Source of the DNA: a virus
Direction: 5' to 3' (one strand)
DNA: 64,000 nt
Virus record (IMG/VR): IMGVR_UViG_3300013006_001433
Coordinates: 14,159-78,158 of that record
Part shown: one piece after another, positions 33,950 through 58,619 of the stretch
Position numbering within the stretch: position 1 is the first letter of the stretch
How the letters are laid out: the number at the start of each line of letters is the position of its first letter
Translations under genes and position numbers: made by a program
The notes under the pieces: model-generated
The model's database searches: none
What the model was told of the DNA's origin: nothing
What the model saw: the letters and a program-made list of their open reading frames with translations, nothing else

Positions 33950-36900
33950 GCAGCTGTATTTCCGTACATTAAATATCCATTATTTCCTGTATGGAGTAGT
34001 GAAATTCCAGCGTATTGTCCTGCTGTTTTGTATTGATTATTGTAACTATTAATTAATACTCCCACTCCAGAACCAGTAATTTGAATTTGTCCTGCTCCAA
34101 TTTGAATTATTGTAGTGTTAAATCCTGTAATATTTCCACTTACTATTGTACCTGTAATTAATATAGCCGAATTTGCGAATATCATTCTTGCATTTTGTGT
34201 TCCAGTAATATTAAAATTAGCAGAAACATTTAAAAGGTCTGGCACAGCATTTATTATTTTTCCATTTTTAAAATCTATTCCAGAAGCAAATACGCCACTT
34301 CCACTAACATTTAAATTTCCACTTATTGTTAGATTTCCACTTATTCCTTGATCTCCAGTTATGTAAACTACAGAATTATTAAGTGCATTTGTTTGACTTT
34401 GTAATGAATTTCCTGTAGATATTAAATCACTAGCTAAAGCAATTCCACTATTATTCAAAGTTAAATTTCCAGAAGGCATGAAGTTTATATTATTACCAGT
34501 TATCACTACATCTCTTAAAATTCCAAGATTAGTTTGTTGAGCTCCAATGATTAAATTATTATTATTATTCCAACCAAAAACACCATATTCTCCAGTATTC
34601 GTACCAGTTTTATTGAACACTCTTAAGTTTTGTGGATTAGTACCACTAATAATATTTATTCCAGTTGTGAAGCTTTTTACTCCACCTATGTTTTGATTAC
34701 CAGTAGTAAAGACCGTTCTTCCACTTAAATTTGTTACTGCTGATTGTAAAGCAAATCCTGTTAGTATTAAATCTCCACTGACTTGATCTATTCCACTTTG
34801 CAAATAACCACTCATCGCTAGAATTTCTGAAGTATTGAAAACATTACTTAATGTGCCAGTTGCTGAAATTGGTCCATTAGTAGCCCAACTTAATGCTAAA
34901 ATTTGATTTGTTAATTTTCTATTGAATCTTACTCTATCTAAAGACACTTGATTTCCTGGATTTGGAAATCTAAAAAATGGATCTTGATCTAAAAATGTAT
35001 AATCTCTGTCATATCCAGTAAATGTTAACCATTCATTAATTAATGTATCGTAAGGCTTTATGTTAACGTAACCACTTTTAATAGGATTTCCATTATTAGA
35101 AAAAGATGAATTAGTTGAAAATACATCATCTGTTCCCATGTACATTTCTCTAACTTGAACTCCACTACTATATAATTCTGCTACCCAACTTTTAGTTTCG
35201 TCTGATAAAGCTTGATTTATGATTGAAGTGATATTCGCTTCTTGAAGCATGCTTTCTTTTGTTTCACTATAAAATACAAAACCGCCCTTAATATCAGGGT
35301 ATAAAGCTTTTAGTCCTGGAGTAGATAAATTAAAATTATTATCTGCAGTAATACCTACATTAATACTATAATCACCACCTACAGGAGGTTTAAGATCAAA
35401 AGATACATTATCATTTTGAAAATATCCCACTAAATAACCATCTGCATTTGTAAATCTATTAGAAGCTGGAGTTGATTGAGATGTCCATTTTCCTGCTGCG
35501 CCTGTTCGAGAATCTATAGCTATATAAAAACTGTTAATTGGTAAAGTAGCAAAAAAATTCAATCCACTATTGTTTGTATTATTTGGATATAGCGAATAAC
35601 TTATATTCGCCCCATTGTTTTCAGCAAATCCAGTAAATGTAGATGTATATATATTATTTTCAGAAAAAGTGCCAGTTATATAATCAATTCTAAATTCAAG
35701 ATCTTTTGCTTTCCAAGTTTTTAATAAAGGATATAAATTATTAATTCTCCAAGCTAAATTTATTCCATAATCTCTAAACTTATTTGCAGTAAGTAAATTT
35801 GAATTTACACCACTTAAGCTATCAAGGGTTGTTGAATATTCAAAATTACTTAATGTAATAAAATTTGTAGCATCATTTAAATTTGCATTTAAAAAAGTTA
35901 TAGGATTAGGGGATCCAGCAAGATAACCATTTGAAATATATCCATAACTATTTAATCCATAAGCTCTAAAATAATAATCTCCATTCACCGCATCTAGTCC
36001 AAAAGAAGAAGATGGATTTGTAACTACTATTGAGCCAATTTGAAAATCGTTTTTTGGAGCTTGTATTGAGTTTCCTTGATTGTTATAAAAAACAGTAGTA
36101 AGATCACCAGCATTAAAATCACTACCAGTCTTAGCAAAAATTTTCCAATAGGTCGTTTCTCTTGCTCCTGGTCCACTAGTTGGTTGAGTTTGAGCTCCAA
36201 TTACTCCACTTATTCTTAATTGATTTGTATACGAAGTTAAGTTAAAAGAAGAGGGTGTTCCTGCATCAAGAATTGTTGTGCTTCCAGGATCTACTACTGG
36301 AGCTTCTGAAAGAGAAATTCCAGATTCAATTGATGAATATTTAGAAGGATTGTATTCAATTGCATTAATATTAAACTTATGAGATTCATTTTCTGTTATA
36401 CTTATTACTTTAAATAATTCAGTTTCTGGAGTTAGATAAAAATTACCTGCACTACCAGTTTGTTCAATAGTCCAAACGGTTCCAGTTGTTAAAGCGTAGT
36501 TAGTTGTGTCGAATAATTTATTACAAGTAAGTCTTGTTATTGCTCTGTCTGGAGTAGGGTTATATCCAGAAATTCCACTTATATTGTTTATAGAAAATAA
36601 GCCAGTTTGTATTTCGGATCTTTGATATCCAGTAAGAAAATCATTAAAAGTTGTTCCAGTAGTTTTATGCGTAGGAGTTAAAATATTAAATTTATATTGC
36701 GGAGCAGAAACACCATTTAAATAACCAGTTAAATCTGAATATGATTGATCTAGAATAAATTCGTGAGAAGATGGTGTGGTTTTAATTCCTAAAATTCTTC
36801 CACCTAATCGATCTACTGTTCTATTACTATCCTGAATTTTCACTATATCTCCAGGATTTAAATATAAAGCATCATATCCTACTGTAAAATTAACTGTTTC

Positions 36901-45045: not shown

Positions 45046-48000
45046 TTAAAATGGATTTACTCCAGAATTGGCCACCCCAAAGGTCCATTTATTCTGGTCA
45101 GCTCGAATATTAGTTGAATCTGTGGTAATTTGTATTCTAACACCAGTAACATTATTTGCTAGGGATAAATCTTGAGTTAAAATACTAGTTGTTGATAAAG
45201 TATCTATTAGACTTGAAGTTCCACCTCCTCTGACCAAAGCTGTCATAACTAATCTATCTGGTTCTGTACTATTAGGTTTAAATTTGACTCTAATTTTTCT
45301 TGTATAAGTTACTGGCACAATCCAATCAGTTGTCCAAGGCGCACTTCCACCAGCAGTAATATTGTCTGTAGAAGTCGTATACTCTACATAAAGATTAGTT
45401 AATAAATCATTTGGTCTTGCTATTACACTATAACTCCAAAATCCACAAGTAGCTTCGTATGAAGCAATTTCTGCTTTTATAGTATCATAAGACTCAGTTT
45501 TATAAAAACAGTAAATTCCAACTCCAGGAGCTTGTATTACTGAATTATCAAAAGCATCATTGGTTATTTCTCCACAAATAGTTGTATCATAAATTATAGC
45601 ATTGGTGTCTGCTCGTCTAAAGATAATTCTATTTGGTACAGAAAATGTTCGAAAATTTATTAAAATCCATCCAGGATCAGATCCAACATAAGTTGTTCTG
45701 TAAGGATATTGAGTAGATGGATAAAGCCCTTCTACTTCTGGAAGCCAGGTATCAGATGCCGCAAAATTAGCCCTATTCCTTCCGTAAATTGGACAGGGAT
45801 TAAATTCTCTATATACTCCTATATCTTGAGTAAGATTAAAATCTGCTAAATCTTTTGCCCCTGTTAATGTGCTTCCATATCCATATCCATATCCAGTATA
45901 TGGATTATATTGATAATTACAATTACAATCTTCTTTATAAGCGTTATGAACATATTTTGAATCAGTTAATTCAAAACTTGATAATTTTCCAGCTACATTA
46001 ATAACGCCATCGATATCAGTATTAAATACATAAAATCTTATAGGAGTATTTTTAGGTACAATTCCATCCCATGGAGTATTTTTAAAATTGATAAAAGAAT
46101 TGTAGTTACTATATATGTCGTAAAATGTCATATCCATTCTTGGGTTTATTTCTTTTAAAGAGCTGCTACTATTTAATATAAATTGCCCAGAAGATAAAGT
46201 TCCACTTGTTCTTGGTAATGGCACTATATTCCAATAAAAATCTCCGTGTTCTCTTCCTTGTCCAACTTTTTGTAAACTATAATCATCATAAGCAATTGGC
46301 CCTACTGTCACTCCTGCATTAATAGGAGGATATACATCATGCATTCTTTGAGATATTGGATTACCTTGTGTATCAGCTAATACTTGAGAAACCGTTCCAA
46401 CTGCTGGTCCATTTGTTGCTAAAATTCCAACTCCATTTGGACCATTCATTAGGGAGACTGCTGTCCCAGTATAAGCTATAAATTCTATTGGAACAGAAGT
46501 AGCCCAAGTTGATCCTGTTGAAACGCAAATACCCAAAGATTCGGAATTTATGAAAGTTGCAGCTCCAGTTGTAATACCACTAGAATATATTTTATATCCA
46601 TTTGCTAATGTAGTTCCAGAAAATCTATTTAATGTTGCAAATTGTGCTCCACCCCATGGATTGTTAAAGCTGGTCCACACAGTTCCATTCTGACGATAGG
46701 CTGTTATATATGTAAGGGCTGGAGAAGTAGTGAAATCTGGAGTTGCAAGAAATTCTATGTATTCATTATCTGTACCAAAATCATCATAAGATATTTCGTT
46801 TAGCCATATAGATTTTGTTTTTGGAGAAGTGGCTGTTCCAAAATATCCACTAAATGCATTTATGTTTCCTGGAGAACTTATTGCTGTTTTATATACAGGA
46901 TCCATTCTTAAAGAAGTATAAAGTGTAAGTCGTGGTCCGATTCCACTATACGCTACAGTATAAGGCGAGTACCATATTACAGTTTGATTAGCTTCCGTGC
47001 CGCTTGTTATTACAAAAATTTGATTTGGATTATTTACCGAAATTCCTTGTGGAGCAATTAATCTATAATCAAATGGTGCAGGACCAAAATAAAAACTTTC
47101 TATAGCAAAATTTGAATCTGTTTTATTAAGTTCAGAAAAATTTACATCAATTCCGCAATATGCACAGTAGTCTATTTTCATTGAATCGTAATTATATATA
47201 TAATTTGGAATATATTGTTGTTCTTTTCCCCAAAGTTGTTCGTATCCGTATTTTCGTTCGTAACCATATTTTTGTTCGTATCCATATTTTTGTTCGTAAC
47301 CATATTTTTGTTCGTAACCATATTTTTGTTCGTAACCATATTTTTGTTCGTAACCATATTTTTGTTCGTAACCATATATTCTTTCTGGCAAACTATCTTC
47401 TAAACATTTTTTATAAATTCCACTGGCATTTGCGTTATTCAATAAATTAACTTTTAAAGATTGTATTCCTAACGCATCTTCACTATATCTATAAACTGCG
47501 CTTCCAGTTACATAACAATCTTCCAAATAAAAATCATATAAAAATCTACCATTTTGTCCTGTCCAAAATTCTCCAGTTACAAGATAATAACATGAATCAC
47601 AAGAGTCTTGGGATATATTACTAAGCGCTTGTGCATATGTACTAACAAAACTATCTCCGCTAGCATACCCACTTCTTAAAGTAGAAGTAATAGAATTTGA
47701 AGGGCAAAGTCCACTGAAAGTCACAGTATAGTCACAATTTGCGCAAGAAATGGCATTCTGTGCTGCAGTTTGTAATTCTAAAGATTCAGCTTCTGCATCA
47801 CAAACAGCTTTCACTTGATCTACAAAACTATCTCCTGAACCCGTAACAAATCCAGTAAAATAACAATTTGTATCATATTTAGAATTAGGAGTATACAATA
47901 ATTTAGTATTCGCTCTTCCAGTTAAAAGATCAATAGGTAATACTCCATAATTAGATATAGTTAAATTAATTCCATTAGATATGTCTACTCCTTGATTTGA

Positions 48001-48579
48001 AGTGGGATTTCCTCCGCTTATTTTAAAAAAATAAGTTGTGTTACCGCTAAGTTCAAAAGATTTTTTTGTATTTGAATTTATTGTTGTATCTATAATATTA
48101 GTATTGATAGTTAATCCTAATGTTAATTTAAGTTCATTATTAATACTATTTGCGCCAGTATAAGCAATTGTTAATGGTATTTTATTATTAATACATGAAG
48201 AAAAAATAGGTGATAAAGTATCTAATTTTCCAGTAATGAAAATTCCAGTTCTTCCTCCAGAACTAGGAGCAGATATTTCAAAAAAGTTTTTTCCTGTGTA
48301 AAATGTATGATTTAAAAAATTATTAGGAGATGTAGTGGCATTTGAATAGGTAAAAAAATTATGACTACCATATTTTAAATTATTATGAACTACTAAAGAG
48401 TTTGAATAACTTCCGAATAAATTATATGTTCCAGTTAAATTTGTTGGTACAGATTTTCCACTTATTAAATAACCAGTCAATATTGGAAAATTATTATAAA
48501 CATCTTCTGCGCAATCATATCCATATGTTTTAATTGCTTCTCCAGTATGAAAATTTATTGGCATTGATACTAAGCTCAT
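45046..48579 (-). CDS. large virion-associated protein (S/T/G/N-rich, Cys-rich patches, YGYEQK repeat, lamin-tail-like domain)
   Basis: Directly downstream of the tape measure. WLNEISYD..GTD.EYIE resembles a lamin-tail domain. C-terminal beta-sandwich-like repeats. Confidence 0.6.
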   Translation of the reverse strand: MSLVSMPINFHTGEAIKTYGYDCAEDVYNNFPILTGYLISGKSVPTNLTGTYNLFGSYSNSLVVHNNLKYGSHNFFTYSNATTSPNNFLNHTFYTGKNFFEISAPSSGGRTGIFITGKLDTLSPIFSSCINNKIPLTIAYTGANSINNELKLTLGLTINTNIIDTTINSNTKKSFELSGNTTYFFKISGGNPTSNQGVDISNGINLTISNYGVLPIDLLTGRANTKLLYTPNSKYDTNCYFTGFVTGSGDSFVDQVKAVCDAEAESLELQTAAQNAISCANCDYTVTFSGLCPSNSITSTLRSGYASGDSFVSTYAQALSNISQDSCDSCYYLVTGEFWTGQNGRFLYDFYLEDCYVTGSAVYRYSEDALGIQSLKVNLLNNANASGIYKKCLEDSLPERIYGYEQKYGYEQKYGYEQKYGYEQKYGYEQKYGYEQKYGYERKYGYEQLWGKEQQYIPNYIYNYDSMKIDYCAYCGIDVNFSELNKTDSNFAIESFYFGPAPFDYRLIAPQGISVNNPNQIFVITSGTEANQTVIWYSPYTVAYSGIGPRLTLYTSLRMDPVYKTAISSPGNINAFSGYFGTATSPKTKSIWLNEISYDDFGTDNEYIEFLATPDFTTSPALTYITAYRQNGTVWTSFNNPWGGAQFATLNRFSGTTLANGYKIYSSGITTGAATFINSESLGICVSTGSTWATSVPIEFIAYTGTAVSLMNGPNGVGILATNGPAVGTVSQVLADTQGNPISQRMHDVYPPINAGVTVGPIAYDDYSLQKVGQGREHGDFYWNIVPLPRTSGTLSSGQFILNSSSSLKEINPRMDMTFYDIYSNYNSFINFKNTPWDGIVPKNTPIRFYVFNTDIDGVINVAGKLSSFELTDSKYVHNAYKEDCNCNYQYNPYTGYGYGYGSTLTGAKDLADFNLTQDIGVYREFNPCPIYGRNRANFAASDTWLPEVEGLYPSTQYPYRTTYVGSDPGWILINFRTFSVPNRIIFRRADTNAIIYDTTICGEITNDAFDNSVIQAPGVGIYCFYKTESYDTIKAEIASYEATCGFWSYSVIARPNDLLTNLYVEYTTSTDNITAGGSAPWTTDWIVPVTYTRKIRVKFKPNSTEPDRLVMTALVRGGGTSSLIDTLSTTSILTQDLSLANNVTGVRIQITTDSTNIRADQNKWTFGVANSGVNPF
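47233..47376 (-). repeat. 8 x 18-bp coding tandem repeat (YGYEQK)
   Basis: Unit TATGGTTACGAACAAAAA: six YGYEQK, then YGYERK and YGYEQL. Confidence 0.97.
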
Positions 48580-48581
48580 AA

Positions 48582-51500
48582 TTAACTACCTTTTGCTAGT
48601 AATCCTCCTGGCCTTTTTTGTTCGATAATTGTTTTAATGGTATTTTCTTTAATCATTTCAGTCAAAGCTTTCATCTTTTGTCCAGATGTTTTGTTTGTAT
48701 CATCGTTATTATTTTCATCATTATTATTAGAATTACTAGATTTAGTTTCGGAAGTATTTCCATCACTTTCAATATTAATAGATATATTAATATTATTTAC
48801 CATTCCTTCATTTGAGGTATTTTTACTTAAGGTGTCATTTAGACTACTTAATGTTTGAGCAAGATCAGATGATTGCGTTTGATTGTTGATACTAGTGTTA
48901 TTATTAATAGTTGAATCTGATACCATTTGTTCAATAATATTTGGATTTTTGGATTCATTAATTGGCCCAACTTGACCACCATTCGCAAATTTACCAACAT
49001 TTCCTCGATTTAGTTTATCAAAGAAATTTGATCCATATTTTTGTACTGCATCTTTACTAACTACGTATTCTCCGTTCATTAATAAAGCTGGAACATCATC
49101 TTGCGCCATTCCACCTTCTGCGAATTTAAATCTATTACTATATTGTAATCCAGAAGAAGAAGAACCTTCTCTTCTAGTATTTGAGTATGAAGTTCCTCCT
49201 CCTAACATACTCGCTAGCATTGGTGCACCTACTGCCCCTGCTCCAAGTAAACCGAACGTAGCTAATTGACTCATCATTGGGCTCATTCCAAAAAGTCCTC
49301 CTGCTCCAGCTGCTGCGGTTGAAGAAGTAACAGCTGTACCAGCCGAACCTATACCAAAACTTGCACCAAAACCAGTTGATCCTCCAATACTTCCTCCAAT
49401 TCCTCCTGCTCCCCCTGCTCCTCCAGCAGCGGCTCCCCCAAATCCTCCAAATGCACCCATTAATAATGATCCTCCGATTGCCATACCAGCATTCAAGAAA
49501 GCAGCTTGCATGCTTTGTTTTTGTTTTCTATTATAAGCATCTAATTGTTGCTGATAAACATATTCTGCTTGTGCTTTTGTATAAATATTTTGATTTAAAG
49601 AATCATTTAAATAACTTTGGTAATCATAATAAGTTTGCTCAGTTTGCATTCTTTCTAAATTTGCTCTATTTGTTTCATCTGTTAAAGCATAATTACTTAA
49701 TCTTGGATCTACTTTTGCTTCGCCTTTCATTTGAGCCATATAAGCTTGTAAAGCAGATATACCTTGGCCAATATCTTTTGTATTTAATCCAGAAGTATTT
49801 TCAAAACCACTCACTACATATTTATTTTCTAATTCTTGTTGAAAGGCCATTCCTCCATCCGCATATCTCCCTGTTAATCCATTGTTTAATGATTGTAAAA
49901 ATCCCATTCCGTAAGCTTGTTGTAAACTTTTAACTGCTCTTGTATTTAATACGTATTCACCTTTAGATAACATCGCTGGAACATCGTCTACTACTCCAGA
50001 CCCACCAGTTACATATCCTCCACTAGCATAACCTTTTACTAAACCTCCTTTAGCCATTCCTCCGCCCAAAAGACCTCCTAAGATTCCCATGTTTGATCCA
50101 CCTAGTGATCCTTGAAGCATATTAAATACTCCGCCAAATAACATTTTAGTAGCTAATTGACTTGAGATTTGAGATATTTGATCTAAAATTTGAATTGTAA
50201 AATTATTAAAAGCGTCTCCAGCAGAGACAGTTCCATTAGCAAAAGCTTGAAATGCATTAGAGAATGAATCTTGAATATTTCTAGCTACATCGACTGCGCT
50301 TGTATTTAAGTCTTGAAATAATTGAGTTCCATTATAACTCATTTGATTAACAAAACTTTGAGCAGATCCAGTTAATGGATTATATGCTTGCGGATTTAAA
50401 CGAGCAAGGTCTTGCTGACGTTGTAATGATCTATTTGCATATTCAGTAGAACTTAAATATCCAGAAGCTAAATCTTTTTGATCTTGTTTATAATCACGTA
50501 TTAATTTTTCTCTTTCCGCTGTTCTCTCTACTTGCAAAGCTATATCCTGTTGAAGAGATTTTTGTTGAGTTAGATAATCAGTTGTAGTTATTTGATTATC
50601 CATTAATTTTTGAACTAATTTTGCTTGTTCGTCTTTTGCTTCTGTTACAATTCTGTCAGCATTAGCTTGATCTTCTAAAGAGCTTGTCATTTGGGTTGTG
50701 CTATTAAGCATATCTCCCATTAAAGCTCCACGTAAAGTTTCTTCAGTTCTGTTTTGTCTATTTAAATCAAGTAATTTAGATAAATTCTCTGCGGCGCTTT
50801 TAGCTTGTACTTCTGATGGATAATTCGTATCATTTACAGCGAGCTTTTGTTGTTCTTCATTTAATTTTGTTTGTAGAAAACTATTTAAAGTTTGAAGTCT
50901 TATCGATTTATTTTCTACGTTTCGAACACTTGTTTGAGCTGCTACGTTTCCATTAGCAATACCTTCTCCACTAGTTGGAACAGTAGGAGCAGTTGGACTT
51001 TCTCCTGTTACTCCAGTTGTTATTTGATCTGCTAACTCTTTTATACTTGCGGATTGTATAGCTATACCTTCGTTAGCTATAAAATCAAAAAACGCAGTAG
51101 AACTTTGCTCTATGTTTGGAATACTAGTTGAAATTGCGTCGTCAAATTTTTGACTTGCATTTAATTGATTTTCTGCAATTTGTTTTAATTGACCTGGACC
51201 AGTTTTAATACCAAAGAAAGAAGCTTTCCTTTGTAAATCAGCAGTAATTCCATTTATGATTTGATCATACAAACCTCCTGGTAATTGACTTTTATTATTT
51301 GGACCAATTTTAAATTCTTTTAAAGTATCTGCAATATTTAGTGCGCCTTGACCTTGTAAGATTGGATTCTTTGAGCCTAACATTCCTTGAGCACTTGTGA
51401 ATTGTTGTGCTTTTTGGAAAAAATCTCCTCTTTTAAAGCTTTCTATTCCACCACCAAAAGTTAAACTTTGACTAATACTAATTAATTTTTTTCTAGCTAA

Positions 51501-54500
51501 AGTTTCCTCTTCAATGGTTCTTCTACTTGTTTCTTGAATTTTACTTGCGGAATCTAGTTTATTTATATAATCTGGTAATGATTTACTTGCTATTTCATTA
51601 AAGCTATTGGACGCTTCTATTAGATTTAATTTTATATCCTCATTCCCTTGTGACAAATTTTGACTAAAAATTATTAATTCCTTACTAGCCTCTGAAGCTG
51701 CTTTCATTCCTGCTTCTGGACTAATTGCAAATTCATTTGTAACTTTAGTTCTTAATTCATCTATTTTATTTAAACCTTTTATAATATCAGTATTGCTTGT
51801 ATTTGTATTTGATGTTCTAAATTTATCCGCTGCATTTGAGCCAACTTCAGCAAGTTTTTGAACTATATTTTGTCTTGCTCCAAGTTTCTGTTGTGCAGCT
51901 TGTGCGTCAACTAATATTTTATCAAAATTAGCAGTAATATCGGTAAGCGCAAATTCTCCAGCAAATATTTTTGTTAATTCTAATATTCTTGATTTTGAAC
52001 TTTGAAGTTGATTAGTAGAATTGGTAATTAAAGCTTCAGAATCACTAAATCTTTTATTAATTTCTATTATAGTATTTGTTGTTGCAGTTATAAATGTATT
52101 AACTGCATTTTTAACAATTTTAGTATAGTCTGCTCCCGCGCTACTACCTTTTTTACCTGATTCATATGCTTTTTTCAAATCTTCTAAACCTAAATATTTA
52201 TTTAGAAGTTCTTCCCATGAAGCTTGATTAATACCTTCTGGTTTTATATTTTTTAATATATCTTTAATTTCTTCTGGTGATTTTGTAATATTTTCAATAG
52301 CAACTTCTGCGACACTCTTATTTAAAGAAGTCATTTGTGTTGGAAGCGCTTTTAATGCGTTGTCAAGAGCAGCTTTTTGTTTAACGATTGATTCTGGATT
52401 TTCTTTTAAATATCTTGCTCTTTCTTCTTCTGGAGAAGTTATTGTACCTAATGGTCCCCCAATTTGATTACCTTGTATAGTAGCATAATTTCTTAAAGTA
52501 GACATTACATAATCCATGGGACCAGTTTGTTGAGTTAAATTATATTCTCTTAAAGCTTTTTCTGCTTGTTGTGCTTGTAAAACTCCTTGTTGACTTTGAA
52601 TTACTTGAGTTTCTATTTGTTGAACTTTAAGTTTATCTCCTCTAGAAAATGCTTCCATTAAAGCATCTCTGAATTCTGGCGCAATTCCACTCAGAGCAGA
52701 AGCTTGTTCTGCTTGTAATTTCGATAAATCTTGTTGATTTAATTTTATATTTCCACTTATTGCATTTGAAATTTTTTCAGTTACCACATTAAATCTACTG
52801 AAACTATCATTTAAACCATTAAGTTTTTCTTGAGATAGTTCTATTTGTTTTCCTAATTTTATAATTGGAGCTTCATCTATTTGTTTTTGAACATCTATAA
52901 GAGCAGTTACTCCTCCTATTAAACCTCCAACTATCGCTCCATAAGGACCACCTAATTGAGCTCCAGTTAATGCAAAACTTGCTGTGCTACTTACTCCACT
53001 TACTATTGATCTTCCTACTGTTGCGTTTTCTGGTAATGCAGAAGATATTGCTCCACCTAAAACTGGTAATGCAATTGAAGCCGCTAATCCTCCAGGACCA
53101 GTCGAAACATTTCTTCCAAAATCTTTTATTTTTTGCCCAAATCCTTGTCTTGCTCCAACCGTGGCTATATTTGAAATTCTTTTAGCGCTTTGCGCAGTTA
53201 CTCCGTATTCTTTTGCTACTTTATCTGCTTCAATATTAGCTTGTTGCACAGAAATTTCTTGTCTAGTTAATTTTTCTTTAATAGATATTAATTTTTGTCT
53301 AATTTCTTGATTAGCAACCTTTGTATCTAATGCTCCTAAACCTCCTACTTCAAAATTAAATGGCGCAAAATTAGGAACAAATCCATGAGATGCTCCAGAT
53401 TTTCTAGCAGAGAATACATCTTTAAATCTAGCAATGCCTTGTGCTAATCCAGCTGGTTCGTCTTTTGTATTATAAACTCCAAGACCAAGTGGATTTTGCG
53501 AGTTAGATAATCTTGAATCTTGACCAACCCTAATTGATGATGGAGAAACTCCAGCAGACACTTCTCTTGCTACAGAATTTGTTAGTGGAGAATAATTTGG
53601 TATAAATCCTTGGCTTTTTAAATTTTTATTTAAATAAGCAGATACGATAGCTTGTCTGCTCGCTTTTTCTTTATTAATTCCTTCTTTATCTAGTCCTGCT
53701 GTAGTTTGAAATACTCCTTTTCCTAAAACTCCACTAGCTCTAATAATTTTATCGGCCATCCCACTTCTATTTGCTGGACTAGAATCGTTAATTTTAAAAT
53801 CTGCTAAAGGAGTATTGTAACCAAATAACTTTCTAAGTTCTGGATTAGATCTCAATACGTCAAATTCTAATCCTTCTGCGCTTGCTGCTTTAATTCCCAA
53901 AGCTAATCCTAGACCAACTTCAAATGCTCCTCCAGCAGCAGCTTGAACCGCTCCTCTTGCTCCTGGAGTTTTTTTAATTGCTTCGATTATTTCTGTTGGA
54001 TTTGGTTTTTCGGCTGGAGGTTTAATTGATTCCGCATAATTTGCTGTTGCAATAGCAACTGCATCTTCTATACTTTTTTTTATATTGCCAATTGCTGCTT
54101 CATTTTTATACGCTTTATTATAAGTTTTAACTGGCCAAATTACTCTTGTTCCTGCATTAGGCCCTTTTTCATAAGTATATGATCCTTCTGATGAACCACT
54201 AAAACCTTCTCTAGGAACAAGCATTGTAGCAATTCCTCGTCCATCTAGAACAGATGTTGATTTAGATTTTGCTCCTAATGCTTTTTGAATTTCAGACTGA
54301 CTTGCGGTTAATCCAGTATCTCCTATTTCAAATTTTTTACTAGTACCTATTTGTTTAAAGTTGCCTTCATTTTCTCTTATTATGGCATTTGAAGCTGTTG
54401 CGAAATTTGGTATATATCCAATTGCTGCATATGGATTAAATCCTAATTTCTTTTGAAATGCTTCTGCATAATTTTTTCCAGCACTACTTGCTTGAGGAGG

Positions 54501-56291
54501 CATAATTGCTGGTTGAGCCATTCCTGGAAATTGTTTTACTTCTTCTGCTTGATTATAAACTACTTGACCTGCTCCAGGAATATTCATTCTTGAAATTGCG
54601 CCTGGTTTGTATCCTCCTAGATATGCCCCATAAACTTCAGCTTGTTCTGGTGAAGAAAAATTAGGAATAAATCCACCACTTTTTGCTGAAATTTTTCCTC
54701 CTGTTGATGCTACTCCTCTACCAATTAAATTACCAGCTATTACGTTAGATATTCTTGCGGATTGCTCTCTTGCTACAGTTTGAGCTTGAATAACTTTTAG
54801 AATATCATTCTCAACGGCTAATAAACTAATCTCTTTGCTTAATATTCCTTGTATTAAATTAGGATTTTGAGATAAAAGATTATTTACTCTTTGTTGAATT
54901 TCTGCTTGCTGTTGGGTGCTTTTATTAATTTCCAGAATTTGACCTACAGCTTGACTACTAAATTTTGCTAAGTTTACAAATAACTTTCCTATAACTGCTC
55001 CAACAAGAGCTAATCCTGGTCCACTAATATAATTTCCTAAACCTTCTAAAAGTCCTTTAGCTAATTTTTCTCCTGGTCCCTTTGCATCTCCAATATTTAT
55101 AGATTCTAATGCGCCATTAATATTTCCTAACACACTTTGAATTGCTGGTCCTAGAGTTAAACCGCCAATATCTGAAGCAAGTTTTGTAAAATTTGCAGAA
55201 GTTTGATTAATTAAAGCTGAAAATGTTTGATTTAATTGTTCGTTTCTTTTTACAGCTGCATCTGTAGCTCCTGAACTTGTATCTAAAGCATTATTATAAA
55301 TAGAATATTGTTTACCTAAATCTCCTAATGCTGCTTTCAAAATGTTAATTTGGAAAACGCCACCAACAAGTTCTGCCACATTTGCTCTTTGGGCATCTGA
55401 TAATCCATCAAATCTTTGAGCAAGTTGGCTTAATGTATCAATTGCTGGACGAAAACTTCCATCTAAATTTCTAACTTGAATATTTAGACTTTCTAATTGA
55501 TCTAATACTTCTGTTCTTTCCAAACGGGTAAAAATAGTTTTTAAAGAATTTCCAATGACTGCTCCACCTCTAGCTGTTGTTTGTTGAACGCTTGTTACTA
55601 ATGCTATTAATTGATCAAAATTAACACCAACACCTTCTGCAGATGAACCTACTCGTTGAATTGCTTCGGCTAAATCTGCACTACTAACTGCAAATGCAGC
55701 GTCAACAGTCGCTAATTTATTAACGATTTCTGTTGAGTCCAAAGCTACTTTATTAAAACTATTAATTGTTGCAGTAAGAGCTTCTGTACTTGATACAACA
55801 TCTAAACCACTTAATCTTGTTAAAATTAATGCATCTCTTGTTCTTTTTAAAGTTTCTGCAACCCCTAAGCCTTGACGAGAAAATTCTGCTGCTGCTTGAG
55901 ATATGGTATCAAAACTTTGACCAGTATCGCCTGCGATTTTAAATAATTGATCTCCAAATCCTTGCAAACTTTTAGAACTTAATCCAAGAATTGAATTAAT
56001 ATCTGCTAGGTTTTTTTGTACTTTAATTGTTGAAGTAATTAAAGCTTCAAACCCTTTTTGAACAGCAAAAATTGCTCCAGCAGAAGCTCCGAATGCTAAA
56101 ACACGAGCATTAGACGCATCTAAAGATTTCCTAAATTCATCTACTGCACCAGTAATTCGACCAAGAGGTTGAGAAAATGCTTTTTCATTTAATCCCTTTA
56201 ATTGATAATTTTTACTAAGTGCCGCAGAGATATCATTCTCTAGTGGCCTTGTATCTGCACCTACTGGGACTCTTCCGACTACATTAGCCAT
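48582..56291 (-). CDS. tail tape measure protein (TP901-type core), 2569 aa
   Basis: EFSRQGL...D...AVSS.DLA.A...G...G..IGNSLKTIF.R core, long helical regions, hydrophobic segments, C-terminal DDVPA.L..GEYV and IIEQKRPGGLL. Confidence 0.93.
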   Translation of the reverse strand: MANVVGRVPVGADTRPLENDISAALSKNYQLKGLNEKAFSQPLGRITGAVDEFRKSLDASNARVLAFGASAGAIFAVQKGFEALITSTIKVQKNLADINSILGLSSKSLQGFGDQLFKIAGDTGQSFDTISQAAAEFSRQGLGVAETLKRTRDALILTRLSGLDVVSSTEALTATINSFNKVALDSTEIVNKLATVDAAFAVSSADLAEAIQRVGSSAEGVGVNFDQLIALVTSVQQTTARGGAVIGNSLKTIFTRLERTEVLDQLESLNIQVRNLDGSFRPAIDTLSQLAQRFDGLSDAQRANVAELVGGVFQINILKAALGDLGKQYSIYNNALDTSSGATDAAVKRNEQLNQTFSALINQTSANFTKLASDIGGLTLGPAIQSVLGNINGALESINIGDAKGPGEKLAKGLLEGLGNYISGPGLALVGAVIGKLFVNLAKFSSQAVGQILEINKSTQQQAEIQQRVNNLLSQNPNLIQGILSKEISLLAVENDILKVIQAQTVAREQSARISNVIAGNLIGRGVASTGGKISAKSGGFIPNFSSPEQAEVYGAYLGGYKPGAISRMNIPGAGQVVYNQAEEVKQFPGMAQPAIMPPQASSAGKNYAEAFQKKLGFNPYAAIGYIPNFATASNAIIRENEGNFKQIGTSKKFEIGDTGLTASQSEIQKALGAKSKSTSVLDGRGIATMLVPREGFSGSSEGSYTYEKGPNAGTRVIWPVKTYNKAYKNEAAIGNIKKSIEDAVAIATANYAESIKPPAEKPNPTEIIEAIKKTPGARGAVQAAAGGAFEVGLGLALGIKAASAEGLEFDVLRSNPELRKLFGYNTPLADFKINDSSPANRSGMADKIIRASGVLGKGVFQTTAGLDKEGINKEKASRQAIVSAYLNKNLKSQGFIPNYSPLTNSVAREVSAGVSPSSIRVGQDSRLSNSQNPLGLGVYNTKDEPAGLAQGIARFKDVFSARKSGASHGFVPNFAPFNFEVGGLGALDTKVANQEIRQKLISIKEKLTRQEISVQQANIEADKVAKEYGVTAQSAKRISNIATVGARQGFGQKIKDFGRNVSTGPGGLAASIALPVLGGAISSALPENATVGRSIVSGVSSTASFALTGAQLGGPYGAIVGGLIGGVTALIDVQKQIDEAPIIKLGKQIELSQEKLNGLNDSFSRFNVVTEKISNAISGNIKLNQQDLSKLQAEQASALSGIAPEFRDALMEAFSRGDKLKVQQIETQVIQSQQGVLQAQQAEKALREYNLTQQTGPMDYVMSTLRNYATIQGNQIGGPLGTITSPEEERARYLKENPESIVKQKAALDNALKALPTQMTSLNKSVAEVAIENITKSPEEIKDILKNIKPEGINQASWEELLNKYLGLEDLKKAYESGKKGSSAGADYTKIVKNAVNTFITATTNTIIEINKRFSDSEALITNSTNQLQSSKSRILELTKIFAGEFALTDITANFDKILVDAQAAQQKLGARQNIVQKLAEVGSNAADKFRTSNTNTSNTDIIKGLNKIDELRTKVTNEFAISPEAGMKAASEASKELIIFSQNLSQGNEDIKLNLIEASNSFNEIASKSLPDYINKLDSASKIQETSRRTIEEETLARKKLISISQSLTFGGGIESFKRGDFFQKAQQFTSAQGMLGSKNPILQGQGALNIADTLKEFKIGPNNKSQLPGGLYDQIINGITADLQRKASFFGIKTGPGQLKQIAENQLNASQKFDDAISTSIPNIEQSSTAFFDFIANEGIAIQSASIKELADQITTGVTGESPTAPTVPTSGEGIANGNVAAQTSVRNVENKSIRLQTLNSFLQTKLNEEQQKLAVNDTNYPSEVQAKSAAENLSKLLDLNRQNRTEETLRGALMGDMLNSTTQMTSSLEDQANADRIVTEAKDEQAKLVQKLMDNQITTTDYLTQQKSLQQDIALQVERTAEREKLIRDYKQDQKDLASGYLSSTEYANRSLQRQQDLARLNPQAYNPLTGSAQSFVNQMSYNGTQLFQDLNTSAVDVARNIQDSFSNAFQAFANGTVSAGDAFNNFTIQILDQISQISSQLATKMLFGGVFNMLQGSLGGSNMGILGGLLGGGMAKGGLVKGYASGGYVTGGSGVVDDVPAMLSKGEYVLNTRAVKSLQQAYGMGFLQSLNNGLTGRYADGGMAFQQELENKYVVSGFENTSGLNTKDIGQGISALQAYMAQMKGEAKVDPRLSNYALTDETNRANLERMQTEQTYYDYQSYLNDSLNQNIYTKAQAEYVYQQQLDAYNRKQKQSMQAAFLNAGMAIGGSLLMGAFGGFGGAAAGGAGGAGGIGGSIGGSTGFGASFGIGSAGTAVTSSTAAAGAGGLFGMSPMMSQLATFGLLGAGAVGAPMLASMLGGGTSYSNTRREGSSSSGLQYSNRFKFAEGGMAQDDVPALLMNGEYVVSKDAVQKYGSNFFDKLNRGNVGKFANGGQVGPINESKNPNIIEQMVSDSTINNNTSINNQTQSSDLAQTLSSLNDTLSKNTSNEGMVNNINISINIESDGNTSETKSSNSNNNDENNNDDTNKTSGQKMKALTEMIKENTIKTIIEQKRPGGLLAKGS

Positions 56292-56329: not shown

Positions 56330-57328
56330 TTAAGCATTATGTAATTTTATGAGGTCTTGGAATGACAATGATCCGCCTTTCTTTTCTGCTTCTTTTACTA
56401 AACTTATACCATCTTTATTTTCCATACCGACTTTCTTTAAATCTTCAGCAGAAGCTCCCACGAGAGATGTACCTAAAGTTTCTTCTGATTTTTTATTTTT
56501 TGATTTGCCTAATAATTCATTAGTATTTTTCGATCCTTCATACCAATCAATTAATGCTTCTGGATCTTCCATAACATTGTCTGGTGGTCTTGTTGTGCTG
56601 TTGGTTAATATATTCTTATAATATTTAGCACAAGCAAATAGCTCAATTTGACTAAATGTTAAATTTATAACAGGTTTCCCAAAAAATACATAAGGATCAT
56701 CATCACATAAATAAAATGAATTTAAAAAGAACCCCGAAAGTGATATCTTCTTAATATTCTTTTCTGTAATTTTAGATAATCCAATATTATATTTAGCGTA
56801 AAATTCAAATAATTCATTATAGTCTAATTCATCAAATTGCTCTTCTGTGAATAGCCTATTAATTAAACTTTCGTCTTTATACAAAGAACAATATACATAG
56901 TATTCGTTTATTTTCTTGTTTGTATACGATTCAAGGGTAGTACCTAGTAACTCTTGTTTTTCTGCTGATATTGAATTTAAATTATCCTCATTTTCTTTGA
57001 TTTGTTTATTAATATCTTCAATATCTCTTGATAATATAAGCTTTGTCTTAGTATATTTAAGGTTTTTAATAAAATCCCTTAATTTGAGTACCTCTTCTTC
57101 TCTGGCTTTTGACCAATTATCTTTAGCTATAAGATTATCCATCTGAGTCTTTTCGTCTAAAAGACCTAATTTTCTAGCTTTTGCTTCTATTTTTAATTTT
57201 CTAGTATTAACAAGATTAATATCTTGTAGAGAGAAATGCTTTATATAAAAAGATATTTTACTATCGCTATAAAACGAATAACCGTTTATAATATCGTAAT
57301 ATATTAATTTATATTCCTCTTGGTTCAA
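56330..57328 (-). CDS. putative tail assembly chaperone 2
   Basis: Synteny immediately upstream of the tape measure. Charged helical protein with TTG start. Confidence 0.55.
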   Translation of the reverse strand: MNQEEYKLIYYDIINGYSFYSDSKISFYIKHFSLQDINLVNTRKLKIEAKARKLGLLDEKTQMDNLIAKDNWSKAREEEVLKLRDFIKNLKYTKTKLILSRDIEDINKQIKENEDNLNSISAEKQELLGTTLESYTNKKINEYYVYCSLYKDESLINRLFTEEQFDELDYNELFEFYAKYNIGLSKITEKNIKKISLSGFFLNSFYLCDDDPYVFFGKPVINLTFSQIELFACAKYYKNILTNSTTRPPDNVMEDPEALIDWYEGSKNTNELLGKSKNKKSEETLGTSLVGASAEDLKKVGMENKDGISLVKEAEKKGGSLSFQDLIKLHNA

Positions 57329-57330
57329 AG

Positions 57331-58071
57331 TTATACATTTTCAAATGTTACCAATTTTTCAAATTCTTCTTGAGTACTAGCTCTTCCCATGTACCAGAAG
57401 CTAATATAAAACGCAAACTTTTTAACTACAGTTTTTAACCATTCATCAGTACCATCTTCAAACGCGTCATATATTGCTAATCTTTCTTCATGAGTACCTT
57501 CGCCAAATAAACAGGCTTCCTTATTTTCCTTGTCTATCATATAAGATAGATTCAAAATCCACCAAAGAATAGTTTTATTTCTTGCTCTATTTTCTGCCGT
57601 TTGATCAAATAAACTAGCTTGTGCAATTTCAAAATCTTGAATTTCTGTTCTAAGATTAATAATTTCAGCAGTTAAGTTATCGAAATGTTCCTGTTCATCT
57701 TTTGATCTTTCGTTCTTTTCTTTAATAGACATTTTTTGATATTCATTTTGTTTTTCAAAAAGTTTTAAATAAAATTCAGCATACTTTTCTTTATCTTTTT
57801 CACTTAAAGCTCCGCCATCATTTGAATACCTCTTAGATAATAAGGATCTTGTCAATAACCCAGCTTTAATTCCTTCTGAAAGTCTTACAGCATAAAATAG
57901 TTCGGCTTCTTCAAACATAGATCTTGTTGGTTTTTTAATAAAGAAATTACGAGGAACAAGCTCTTTGCCCTTGGAGGTAATCTTTATTTCCTTACCACCT
58001 TCAAGTTTAGTTTCAATTTTATCTACCTCTTCTTCTTTTTTTACTATAAATTCATATATTTTTTTAGTCAT
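57331..58071 (-). CDS. putative tail assembly chaperone 1
   Basis: Between tail tube and tape measure. FFIKKPT motif, coiled coil. Confidence 0.55.
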   Translation of the reverse strand: MTKKIYEFIVKKEEEVDKIETKLEGGKEIKITSKGKELVPRNFFIKKPTRSMFEEAELFYAVRLSEGIKAGLLTRSLLSKRYSNDGGALSEKDKEKYAEFYLKLFEKQNEYQKMSIKEKNERSKDEQEHFDNLTAEIINLRTEIQDFEIAQASLFDQTAENRARNKTILWWILNLSYMIDKENKEACLFGEGTHEERLAIYDAFEDGTDEWLKTVVKKFAFYISFWYMGRASTQEEFEKLVTFENV

Positions 58072-58075
58072 ATTT

Positions 58076-58336
58076 TTATACTCCTACTTTTAAAGATTCA
58101 ATAAAACCTTTTGTTTTTTTATAATTAGCATTTCCACCTATAAGTTTTATAAAAACATTTTGTTTTTCTTCGTTCCAAGAGCTATATTGATTTAAAAAAT
58201 TTTTATTTTTAAATGTATTCAAGGAAGGATTTTTAATTCCTAATTTGTTTAATTCTCTTTGTATTGCTTGCATCTCCAAGTTCGCTTGGATAATAGCATC
58301 AATAGGAAAACTAATATATTTATTTCTCATTTTCAT
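58076..58336 (-). CDS. hypothetical protein
   Basis: Short ORF overlapping the upstream gene. Start uncertain (ATG 58336 or 58330). Confidence 0.5.
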   Translation of the reverse strand: MKMRNKYISFPIDAIIQANLEMQAIQRELNKLGIKNPSLNTFKNKNFLNQYSSWNEEKQNVFIKLIGGNANYKKTKGFIESLKVGV

Positions 58337-58619
58337 CTTTAAATTCCATTTTAATAAAGTCAAAATTTTTCTCTATATCTCTTATTGTTTCGTTACCTAT
58401 ATCAAGTATTTTCTTTCTTAAGTAATTATATTTATTATCATCAAAATAATCAATATTTTTTAATGTATTTTGATCTATTTTGCTTGATATTTTATCTATC
58501 ATAGTGTTATGATCTTCTTGAATATCTTCTATTAAATTAAGATATCTTTTGTATAAATTAACTAAACTTTTATGTATCTGAAAAGATACGTAATCTTTTA
58601 CTTTATTATTATTTTGCAT
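58320..58619 (-). CDS. hypothetical helical protein
   Basis: 99-aa ORF preceded by GTGTAAA (58657-58663) and an AGGTATAAG leader motif. Confidence 0.65.
   Translation of the reverse strand: MQNNNKVKDYVSFQIHKSLVNLYKRYLNLIEDIQEDHNTMIDKISSKIDQNTLKNIDYFDDNKYNYLRKKILDIGNETIRDIEKNFDFIKMEFKDENEK

What the first reader, a model, noticed from the sequence alone, without database searches (positions are those of the whole stretch)
53364..54682. Tape measure contains GFIPNF-delimited cassettes, one with a PD-(D/E)XK nuclease-like motif
Seen: four copies of G[FY][IV]PN[FY] (~54655-54682 SGGFIPNFS, ~54399-54425 AIGYIPNFA, ~53589-53615 SQGFIPNYS, ~53364-53388 SHGFVPNFA) split the region after the TP901 core into three non-coiled-coil modules. 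The two flanking ~75-aa modules share a VYN..(.)E element (VVYNQAEE, GVYNTKDE). The central ~260-aa module has GGAFE...EFDV...ADFK (~53790-53935), the G-x-x-F-E / F-D / D-x-K spacing of restriction-endonuclease-fold nucleases. Established: tape measures are ejected into the cell and often proteolytically processed. Inference: this tape measure is a polyprotein that delivers a repeat-flanked, exchangeable effector (a nuclease or nuclease-fold binder) at injection, with the repeats as cleavage or recombination junctions.
Basis: partly seen in the sequence, partly recalled or inferred. Interest (0 to 1): 0.8.

Follow-up and report, generated by a model that had tools for sequence, protein, structure and literature searches.

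The report
Junction peptide fences swappable tape-measure modules
The tail-length "ruler" protein of this uncultured aquatic phage has three folded modules in its first half, each fenced by the same six-residue peptide at which related phages swap, add or move modules; the middle module keeps a nuclease-like set of residues, but its predicted fold matches no known nuclease, and cutting at the peptide is untested.

Summary
The ORF 48582-56291 (-) encodes a 2569-aa TP901-type tape measure protein (TMP). G[FY][IV]PN[FY] occurs four times, at aa 540, 625, 895 and 970, and nowhere else in six frames; chance expects about 2e-4 per protein.

More than 1100 database clusters and 386 IMG/VR loci keep the motifs. 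In both AlphaFold models they lie in low-confidence linkers between three folded modules: M1 (79 aa), central (264 aa) and M3 (69 aa).

- **Exchange: supported.** Identity to close relatives drops from about 14/15 to 2-6/15 exactly at motifs 2, 3 and 4. Relatives insert unrelated cassettes between extra motif copies. One is SNase-like and one weakly ParB-like, and the latter sits in different slots. One TMP has 11 motifs.
- **PD-(D/E)XK: not supported by fold.** E791, D811, K833 and K848 are invariant. A confident model (pLDDT 84) matches nothing in the PDB (Foldseek best E 0.69; VIA no Z of 5 or more). Pfam and PDB profile searches are silent.
- **Cleavage: untested.** The inferred phage T5 pb2 cut site (FVPR|AEGG) resembles the junction peptide. 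A chaperone-docking role is a rival: YIPN matches the SurA-binding peptide WEYIPNV.

This scan has noted the same architecture in at least eight other genomes, with similar verdicts.

The parts
48582..56291 (-). Tape measure protein, 2569 aa (P0001)
   Evidence: ORF and translation. PF10145 at E 1.5e-29; PHROG tape-measure families. Lambda-like tail genes gpM, gpL and gpJ lie downstream.
55371..55934 (-). PhageMin_Tail (TP901-type) core, aa 120-307
   Evidence: Pfam PF10145, 103.7 bits.
54657..54674 (-). Junction peptide 1, GFIPNF (aa 540-545)
   Evidence: Invariant G/P/N in 76 and 45 aligned relatives. pLDDT below 50.
54420..54656 (-). Module M1, 79 aa (aa 546-624), a small beta-rich domain and the most conserved part of the region
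   Evidence: Alignment A3: 70% mean column identity and 26 invariant columns. AF2 pLDDT 85-91. No Pfam or PDB match. No stand-alone homologue of 50-160 aa.
54402..54419 (-). Junction peptide 2, GYIPNF (aa 625-630)
   Evidence: Mosaic breakpoint here in P0017, P0023 and P0040-45.
53610..54401 (-). Central module, 264 aa (aa 631-894): variable beta-rich N-half and conserved helix-rich C-half
   Evidence: AF2 model m96b9475c77b8: pLDDT 83.7, pTM 0.73. No fold match. Found only inside TMP-like proteins. Identity to relatives ranges from 98% to 20% while the flanks stay near 80-90%.
53745..53933 (-). Conserved core of the central module (aa 787-849): GxxFE ... [FL]D ... [DE]xK ... SxAxKI
   Evidence: G787, F790, E791, D811, K833 and K848 are invariant in 62 diverse sequences. 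The pattern is kept in all allelic variants and in distant lineages.
53592..53609 (-). Junction peptide 3, GFIPNY (aa 895-900)
   Evidence: Mosaic breakpoint. pLDDT below 50.
53385..53591 (-). Module M3, 69 aa (aa 901-969)
   Evidence: Alignment A4: 51% mean column identity. AF2 pLDDT about 73-83. No PDB profile match.
53367..53384 (-). Junction peptide 4, GFVPNF (aa 970-975)
   Evidence: Identity to P0002, P0004, P0006 and P0008 collapses just after it.
52887..53102 (-). Two Gly-rich hydrophobic segments (aa 1064-1087 and 1113-1135) after the module array
   Evidence: Kyte-Doolittle scan. That such segments are the putative membrane-inserting parts of TMPs is established knowledge (PMC5099701), not tested here.
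49008..50030 (-). C-terminal region with four [FY]AxGG motifs, two of them followed by DDVPAxLxxGEYV (aa 2088-2125 and 2390-2428)
   Evidence: Read from the sequence. The motifs resemble the AEGG side of the inferred T5 pb2 cut site.

Best explanation
Residues 540-975 of this TP901-type tape measure protein form a 'module bay': three separately folding domains (M1, central, M3) strung on flexible linkers. Each linker carries the same junction peptide, [AS]-x-G-[FY]-[IV]-P-N-[FY]-[AS]. Shown: the peptide is conserved at the protein level across a very large family of uncultured aquatic siphophage TMPs, and it marks the exact joints where whole modules are replaced by divergent alleles, added, lost or moved. 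Shown: the central module is the fast-swapping unit. It has a confidently predicted alpha/beta fold without a known counterpart and an invariant E791/D811/K833/K848 constellation. Inferred: the central module is an enzyme or ligand-binding domain that acts during genome entry, carried in the tail lumen and expelled ahead of the DNA. Inferred, about even odds: the junction peptide is a recognition site at which the TMP is cut, as T5 pb2 is cut at a similar peptide, so that the modules are freed after ejection or during tail maturation. The modules would then be a changeable payload, and some relatives extend it with SNase-like and ParB-like cassettes.
For: The motif is non-random and occurs only in this ORF. 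It is kept with constant spacing in 119 of 119 retrieved homologues and about 80 IMG/VR loci. Its DNA copies differ at synonymous sites, so selection acts on the peptide. The extended logo from 647 instances has A/S at -2 (90%) and A/S at +6 (72%). The motifs lie in linkers with pLDDT below 50 between folded modules.

Sliding identity falls from 13-15/15 to 2-6/15 at motif 2 and recovers at motif 3 in P0017, P0023 and P0040-45. It collapses after motif 4 in P0002, P0004, P0006 and P0008. Similarity is discordant: P0002 has centre 98% but N-terminus 82% and downstream 34%; P0023 has N-terminus 98% and downstream 81% but centre 44%.

Extra cassettes are unrelated to M1, the centre or M3 once the motifs are stripped. 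One is SNase-like: PDB thermonuclease E 8.8e-5, all 23 hits SNase, equivalents of D21/R35/D40/E43/R87 kept, and Pfam PF00565 covering 3-106 of 107. A 105-aa cassette gives a weak ParB_N match (E 0.006) and lies between M1 and the centre in P0023/P0030, but between the centre and M3 in L084-L086. L087 has 11 motifs and 10 segments.

Invariant residues of the central module. Distant lineages fence the same central module with G[HFY][ILM]PR[FY]A.

T5 pb2 reads ...NSFVPR|AEGG... at the position implied by a 92-residue pb2C. This lies between the hydrophobic stretch and the metallopeptidase motif, as the T5 paper describes. A precedent for enzyme cargo in a TMP is the P23-45 gp96 virion RNA polymerase (PMC10770324).
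Against: No cleavage, delivery or activity has been measured, and no protease was found. The neighbouring ORFs have no Pfam, PHROG or PDB match.

The T5 cut position is my inference from the fragment length, not read from the paper's figure, and the similarity covers only F-V-P-R plus AxGG.

In this TMP none of the three modules matches any enzyme family.

Domain boundaries could coincide with mosaic breakpoints whatever the peptide does.

Six or three copies of a 264-aa folded domain do not fit side by side in a tail tube of about 4 nm. The modules would therefore have to travel unfolded. This is my own reasoning and is not tested.
Confidence: 0.5

Rival explanations
1. One reading: the central module is a PD-(D/E)XK-fold nuclease, or a nuclease-fold DNA binder, released by cleavage at the repeats and injected to act on DNA.
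For: The order and spacing E791 ... D811 ... [DE]831-x-K833 fit the signature. E, D and K are invariant, and position 831 toggles between D and E across alleles (DFK, EVK, DLK, DYK, DAK). DYK and DFK resemble RecB-type motif III (my knowledge, not tested). Relatives add a genuine SNase-family cassette next to it, so nucleic-acid enzymes do occur in this bay.
Against: A confident model (pLDDT 83.7, pTM 0.73, and 86-93 over the motif region) shows E791 inside a long helix, D811 in a loop with isolated bridges, a helix between D811 and the DFK strand, and only helices after it. This is not an alpha-beta-beta-beta-alpha-beta core. Foldseek against the PDB gives best E 0.69. VIA against 48,161 chains gives no Z of 5 or more, and only a three-helix piece aligns. 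BFVD gives nothing. No Pfam nuclease family appears among 62 members even at E 10. The profile search against PDB sequences is silent.
Confidence: 0.15
2. The junction peptides are docking sites and not cut sites. They would be short linear motifs that bind a common partner: a periplasmic prolyl-isomerase chaperone of the host (SurA or FkpA type), the tail assembly chaperone, or the tube lumen. The modules stay attached to the TMP. The fast-swapping central module sets which host envelope factor is used for genome entry, or evades TMP-sensing defences.
For: The motif is a conserved, exposed, aromatic-X-Pro peptide in disordered linkers. GYIPNF shares YIPN with WEYIPNV, the peptide that binds the SurA P1 domain with micromolar affinity (PMC11401910). 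HK97 genome injection needs the periplasmic chaperone FkpA and PtsG (PMC5099701). In E. coli siphophages a mosaic TMP region correlates with ManYZ dependence, and the SNIPE defence contacts the TMP (PMC13190303). That gives a known selective reason for allelic replacement such as that seen. Asn is replaced by Arg in distant lineages while [ILMV]-Pro is kept.
Against: The WEYIPNV match is four residues of a phage-display peptide for E. coli SurA, the upstream Ar-X part is absent, and the host here is unknown. A docking role does not by itself explain why every module, whatever its fold, needs the peptide on both sides. Four invariant charged residues in the centre look more like an active site than a variable binding surface. 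SNase-like cargo in a relative argues for effectors.
Confidence: 0.3
3. The modules and peptides are only structural filler of the ruler. The peptide would be a favoured linker inherited by duplication, and module turnover would be neutral mosaicism without payload function.
For: TMPs tolerate internal deletions and duplications that simply change tail length (PMC5099701). No enzyme family is detectable in this TMP.
Against: There is six-residue invariance over sequences down to 16-30% identity, with synonymous DNA variation. M1 has 26 invariant columns. The centre has an invariant E/D/K/K set. A cassette in a relative keeps the SNase catalytic residues. All of these indicate purifying selection on function.
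Confidence: 0.05

Closest known systems
Phage T5 tape measure protein pb2 (cut into pb2* and pb2C)
   Same: [quoted passage not shown] The peptide at the inferred cut, SFVPR|AEGG, resembles F-[IV]-P-[NR]-[FY]-A here and G[HFY][ILM]PR[FY]A-x-G in distant relatives.
   Different: T5 has a single site near the C-terminus, and its cargo is a metallopeptidase-type wall hydrolase. Here there are four sites in the N-terminal 40% fencing three modules of unknown function. No sequence similarity of the modules to cultured phages was found. Cutting here is unproven.
Polyvalent proteins of phages and conjugative elements (Iyer et al. 2017, PMC5512222)
   Same: These are long virion-delivered proteins that string together variable effector domains (ParB-like DNases, nucleases, ARTs) and are thought to be processed into units. 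Relatives of this TMP carry SNase-like and ParB_N-like cassettes.
   Different: Those proteins are head or pilot proteins with a zincin-like MPTase for processing, and the paper never mentions tape measures (0 occurrences). Here the carrier is the TMP, no peptidase domain is detectable, and a fixed junction peptide fences every module.
Thermus phage P23-45 gp96, a TMP whose N-terminal part is a virion RNA polymerase (PMC10770324)
   Same: The N-terminal portion of a giant TMP is a functional enzyme brought into the host with the tail contents.
   Different: It has one large fixed enzyme. No repeated junction peptide or cassette exchange is reported. No similarity was tested or found here.
TMPs with embedded wall-hydrolase motifs (mycobacteriophage TM4, staphylococcal phage TMPs), as cited in PMC12617516
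   Same: Non-ruler functional domains are embedded in a TMP.
   Different: Those are recognisable peptidoglycan hydrolases. The modules here match no hydrolase family or fold.
Viral polyproteins with a constant protease recognition peptide at every domain junction (e.g. potyvirus NIa sites; my knowledge)
   Same: A 6-9 residue conserved peptide sits in disordered linkers at each and every module boundary, independent of module identity.
   Different: No cognate protease has been identified and no cleavage shown. The carrier is a structural tail protein of a dsDNA phage.

Membership tests
TP901/lambda-type tail tape measure protein | PhageMin_Tail (PF10145) core near the N-terminus | tested here: met
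   E 1.5e-29, 103.7 bits against a cut-off of 33.2, aa 120-307.
TP901/lambda-type tail tape measure protein | Position in a siphophage tail gene block (major tail, chaperones, TMP, gpM, gpL, gpJ) | tested here: met
   PF05939 (gpM) and PF05100 (gpL). gpJ-type PHROGs at 33946-39027.
PD-(D/E)XK nuclease superfamily | Ordered acidic/Lys signature E ... D ... (D/E)-x-K | tested here: met
   E791, D811 and K833 are invariant, and position 831 is D or E in most alleles.
PD-(D/E)XK nuclease superfamily | Alpha-beta-beta-beta-alpha-beta core with a four-stranded mixed sheet carrying D and (D/E)xK on adjacent strands | tested here: inconclusive
   The DSSP of the confident AF2 model shows helix, isolated bridges, helix, one strand and helices around the motifs. 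No nuclease appears in Foldseek PDB (best E 0.69), VIA wide (no Z of 5 or more) or BFVD. Model coordinates could not be inspected.
PD-(D/E)XK nuclease superfamily | Match to a curated sequence model of any member family | tested here: not met
   No Pfam nuclease family for any of the 62 members at E up to 10. The profile against PDB sequences gives nothing relevant.
Polyvalent proteins (Iyer et al. 2017) | Several recognisable effector enzyme domains in one virion-delivered polypeptide | tested here: not met
   In this TMP no module matches an enzyme family. Only relatives carry SNase-like or ParB_N-like cassettes.
Polyvalent proteins (Iyer et al. 2017) | Zincin-like MPTase or other peptidase domain for processing | tested here: not met
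   No peptidase family in the whole protein at E up to 1 or in relatives.
Proteolytically processed TMP (T5 pb2 / lambda gpH type) | Peptide resembling a mapped cut site | tested here: inconclusive
   T5 has SFVPR|AEGG at the position implied by a 92-aa pb2C, against G[FY][IV]PN[FY][AS] here. The similarity is short and the cut position is inferred.
Proteolytically processed TMP (T5 pb2 / lambda gpH type) | Demonstrated cleavage products in virions | not testable with these tools
   This needs virion mass spectrometry or N-terminal sequencing.
SurA P1-domain client peptide (Ar-X-Ar-X-Pro) | Aromatic-X-aromatic-nonpolar-Pro pattern | tested here: inconclusive
   [FY]-[IV]-P-N matches Y-I-P-N of WEYIPNV, but the upstream aromatic-X is replaced by small residues. 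Binding was not tested.

The most novel reading that the evidence does not exclude
The tape measure of a very large clade of aquatic siphophages is a true polyprotein. A fixed junction peptide is cut by a host or unknown phage protease, or by the conserved M1/M3 modules themselves. The cuts free a changeable set of effectors into the cell ahead of the DNA. The universally retained central module would be a new, fold-level-novel enzyme, possibly a nuclease that uses an E/D/K/K site.
Probability: 0.3. Interest if true: 0.85.

Novelty: new variant of a known kind. Interest (0 to 1): 0.6.

Why it matters
Tape measure proteins are the first phage proteins to enter the host envelope. They are now known to decide which inner-membrane entry route is used and to be sensed by defence systems. 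If a constant junction peptide allows whole folded modules to be swapped in and out of the ruler, the tail lumen becomes a configurable payload carrier. That would be a tail-borne counterpart of head-packaged polyvalent proteins.

The peptide gives a simple sequence handle for finding such cargo in metagenomes. It also gives a precise site to test TMP processing, whose protease and cut sites remain unknown even for lambda. The central module is a widespread, confidently modelled domain with an apparent active site and no known fold, which makes it a good target for structure and function work.

Tried and rejected
- **Family and sequence searches.** Pfam and PHROGs on the whole TMP and on each module found only PF10145 and whole-TMP PHROGs. 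Pfam on all 62 central-module sequences at E 10 gave no consistent family. PDB sequence and profile searches with the region and with alignments A2, A3 and A4 gave nothing.
- **Fold searches.** Foldseek against the PDB on the whole-region model and on the central model, VIA-wide on both, and BFVD gave no match. Only a generic three-helix piece aligned, at Z 5.0 or less. M1 and M3 were not folded alone because the AF2 jobs were exhausted, so their folds remain untested.
- **Other look-ups.** The ESM Atlas gave scores of 0.80 or less and was uninformative. tblastn against cultured phages (INPHARED) found no match. No stand-alone homologues of the central module (157-501 aa) or of M1 (50-160 aa) exist apart from one fragment.
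- **M1/M3 homology.** This was rejected as unsupported once the shared motif ends were trimmed.
- **Asn-cyclisation self-cleavage at N|F.** I considered this from my own knowledge of nodavirus and tetravirus capsids and FlhB. It is weakened because distant lineages have Arg in place of Asn.
- **DNA-level repeat or recombination site.** Rejected: the 18-nt copies differ at synonymous positions.
- **ADP-ribosyltransferase reading of a 241-aa cassette (YRG/STS by eye).** Neither Pfam nor PDB supports it.
- **A neighbouring protease gene.** ORFs 56330-57328, 57331-58071 and 45046-48579 have no Pfam, PHROG or PDB match.
- **Host.** Relatives occur only in aquatic MAG contigs of mixed taxa, so the host stays unknown.
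Full report
**What is there.** The finding lies in one ORF, 48582-56291 on the minus strand, encoding a 2569-aa protein. It is a TP901-type tape measure protein (TMP): PF10145 at aa 120-307 (E 1.5e-29) and several tape-measure PHROGs. Genes for gpM (PF05939), gpL (PF05100) and a gpJ-like central fibre lie downstream. The window comes from a 78-kb IMG/VR virus record judged about 51% complete. GC content is about 30%. Relatives in genome collections occur only on contigs of aquatic MAGs of mixed taxa, so the host is unknown.

**The observation.** From the protein's own composition, chance expects 2e-4 occurrences per protein. The GGAFE, EFDV and ADFK elements and the two VYN..E elements are present as described.

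**Conservation.** A search with aa 530-985 returned more than 1100 clusters, all long TMPs. Every one of the 119 retrieved sequences keeps the motifs with spacings of about 82-85, 240-300 and 73-76 residues. IMG/VR holds 386 relatives, and the 80 fetched show the same plan. A logo from 647 distinct instances extends the motif to [AK]-[AS]-x-G-[FY]-[IV]-P-N-[FY]-[AS]. The four DNA copies in the window differ at synonymous positions, so the peptide is what is conserved, not a DNA repeat. No paper in the library contains GFIPNF.

**Structure.**
- AlphaFold2 on aa 530-985 with 76 relatives gave mean pLDDT 77. It shows three folded units, and all four motifs fall in stretches with pLDDT below 50.
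- The central module alone, with 62 diverse sequences, gave pLDDT 83.7 and pTM 0.73, again with low-confidence ends at the motifs.
- The flanking modules are not spacers. M1 has 70% mean column identity and 26 invariant columns, M3 has 51%, and the central module has 21%.
- M1 and M3 share a short NxxGxG-VYNxx[DE]E element. The apparent profile similarity (95.8%) disappears once the shared terminal motifs are trimmed (0.4%, E 0.17). Their homology is therefore not established.

**Is the content between repeats exchangeable?** Yes.
- Among relatives whose N-terminal region is 83-98% identical and whose M1 is about 80-91% identical, the central module ranges from 98% down to 20% identity. The pattern is discordant: P0002 has centre 98% but downstream 34%, while P0023 has N-terminus 98% and downstream 81% but centre 44%.
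- In 15-residue windows, identity falls from 13-15 to 2-6 exactly in the bin after motif 2 and recovers at motif 3 in P0017, P0023 and P0040-45. It collapses right after motif 4 in P0002, P0004, P0006 and P0008.
- Some relatives have five or more motifs with extra segments. With the motifs stripped, these segments have no similarity to M1, the centre or M3.
- One extra segment (L002) is a staphylococcal-nuclease-family domain. PDB thermonuclease scores E 8.8e-5, all 23 hits are SNase, equivalents of D21, R35, D40, E43 and R87 are kept, and Pfam PF00565 covers 3-106 of 107 positions.
- A 105-aa segment gives a weak ParB_N match restricted to the DGxHR box (E 0.006). Nearly the same segment sits between M1 and the centre in P0023 and P0030, but between the centre and M3 in L084-L086.
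- One IMG/VR TMP (L087, 2967 aa) has 11 motifs fencing 10 segments. These include two centre-like modules and a cassette also seen in P0040.
- Distant lineages that lack GFIPNF fence the same central module with G[HFY][ILM]PR[FY]A.

**Is the central module a PD-(D/E)XK nuclease?**
- The sequence signature is real. G787, F790, E791, D811, K833 and K848 are invariant in 62 sequences down to 16% identity. The residue two before K833 is D or E in the different alleles.
- The fold evidence does not follow. In the confident model, E791 lies within a long helix. D811 lies in a loop with isolated bridges. A helix separates D811 from the single DFK strand, and only helices follow.
- Foldseek against the PDB gives a best E of 0.69. 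VIA-align against 48,161 chains finds no Z of 5 or more, and only a three-helix piece aligns. BFVD gives nothing.
- Pfam on all 62 members at E 10, and HMM searches of PDB sequences, show no nuclease or other family.
- The module occurs only inside TMP-like proteins: 57 clusters at 50% identity, always at about aa 600-900. No stand-alone form was found.
- I put the PD-(D/E)XK reading at about 0.15. More likely this is an enzyme-like or ligand-binding domain of an unrecognised fold.

**What does the junction peptide do?** This is inference. Its invariance, its exposure in linkers, and its presence on both sides of every module whatever the fold resemble protease recognition sites at the junctions of viral polyproteins (my knowledge).

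T5 pb2 (1219 aa) is cut between its hydrophobic stretch and its metallopeptidase motif. pb2C is given as 92 residues. That places the cut in ...NSFVPR|AEGG.... This peptide resembles F-[IV]-P-[NR]-[FY]-A, the [FY]AxGG motifs in the C-terminal part of this TMP, and the Arg-type junctions of distant relatives. The cut position is inferred from the fragment length, and the similarity is short.

Two points count against over-reading this. [quoted passage not shown]

A serious rival is docking. GYIPNF shares YIPN with WEYIPNV, the peptide that binds the SurA P1 prolyl-isomerase domain. HK97 entry needs the periplasmic chaperone FkpA. A mosaic TMP region is known to set ManYZ dependence and to be contacted by the SNIPE defence. 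That would explain allelic turnover of the central module without any release.

**Comparison with what is known.** The closest systems are:
- T5 pb2, which has one cut and wall-hydrolase cargo;
- polyvalent proteins, which are head-delivered, processed by an MPTase, and never described in tape measures;
- P23-45 gp96, which has a fixed RNA polymerase at the TMP N-terminus;
- TMPs with wall-hydrolase motifs.

The new element is a fixed junction peptide that fences swappable modules inside the ruler. I class it as a new variant of a known kind.

This scan has already recorded the same architecture in at least eight other genomes. Follow-up verdicts there match mine: observation confirmed, exchange at the peptide, nuclease fold unsupported, cutting untested.

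**Limits.** The model coordinates could not be inspected. No experiment bears on cleavage, delivery or activity.

Noticed in passing
L087:3718-10656 (IMG/VR UViG 3300007735_000798): A 2967-aa TMP with 11 junction peptides fencing 10 segments: seven in the N-terminal bay (including two centre-like modules and the 155-aa cassette of P0040) and two more near the C-terminus. Pfam is silent on the new segments.
   Followed up: partly
L002:3262-3831 (IMG/VR UViG 3300020442_004062): An extra 178-aa cassette between junction peptides is a staphylococcal-nuclease-family domain with its catalytic residues kept. The central module of the same TMP (L002:3814-4674) does not match the family profile A2.
   Followed up: partly
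L085:9492-9842, L086:1385-1735; P0023/P0030 aa 631-735: A nearly identical 105-aa cassette with a ParB-type DGxHR box occupies different slots in different TMPs: before the central module in some and after it in others.
   Followed up: partly
window 49008-50030 (-), aa 2088-2428: Four [FY]AxGG motifs. Two are followed by a duplicated DDVPAxLxxGEYV element. The AxGG part resembles the C-side of the inferred T5 pb2 cut site.
   Followed up: no
window 58076-58619 (-): Two short ORFs (95 and 99 aa) overlap by 44 nt between the putative major tail gene and the TMP. They are candidates for the tail-assembly-chaperone pair with programmed frameshift. Neither has a PHROG match.
   Followed up: no
window 56330-58071 (-) and 45046-48579 (-): Two ORFs (332 and 246 aa) lie between the chaperone candidates and the TMP, and a 1177-aa ORF directly follows the TMP. 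None has a Pfam, PHROG or PDB sequence match. This is unusual content for a lambda-like tail block.
   Followed up: partly
window 53892-53948 (-), aa 782-800: In this allele the helix that carries the invariant GxxFE is as hydrophobic (Kyte-Doolittle 1.43) and Gly/Ala-rich as the putative membrane segments of the TMP. Other alleles are more amphipathic.
   Followed up: no
window 48582-48900 (-), about aa 2470-2540: An Asn/Ser/Asp-rich low-complexity stretch lies just before the conserved C-terminal QRPGGLL end of the TMP.
   Followed up: no
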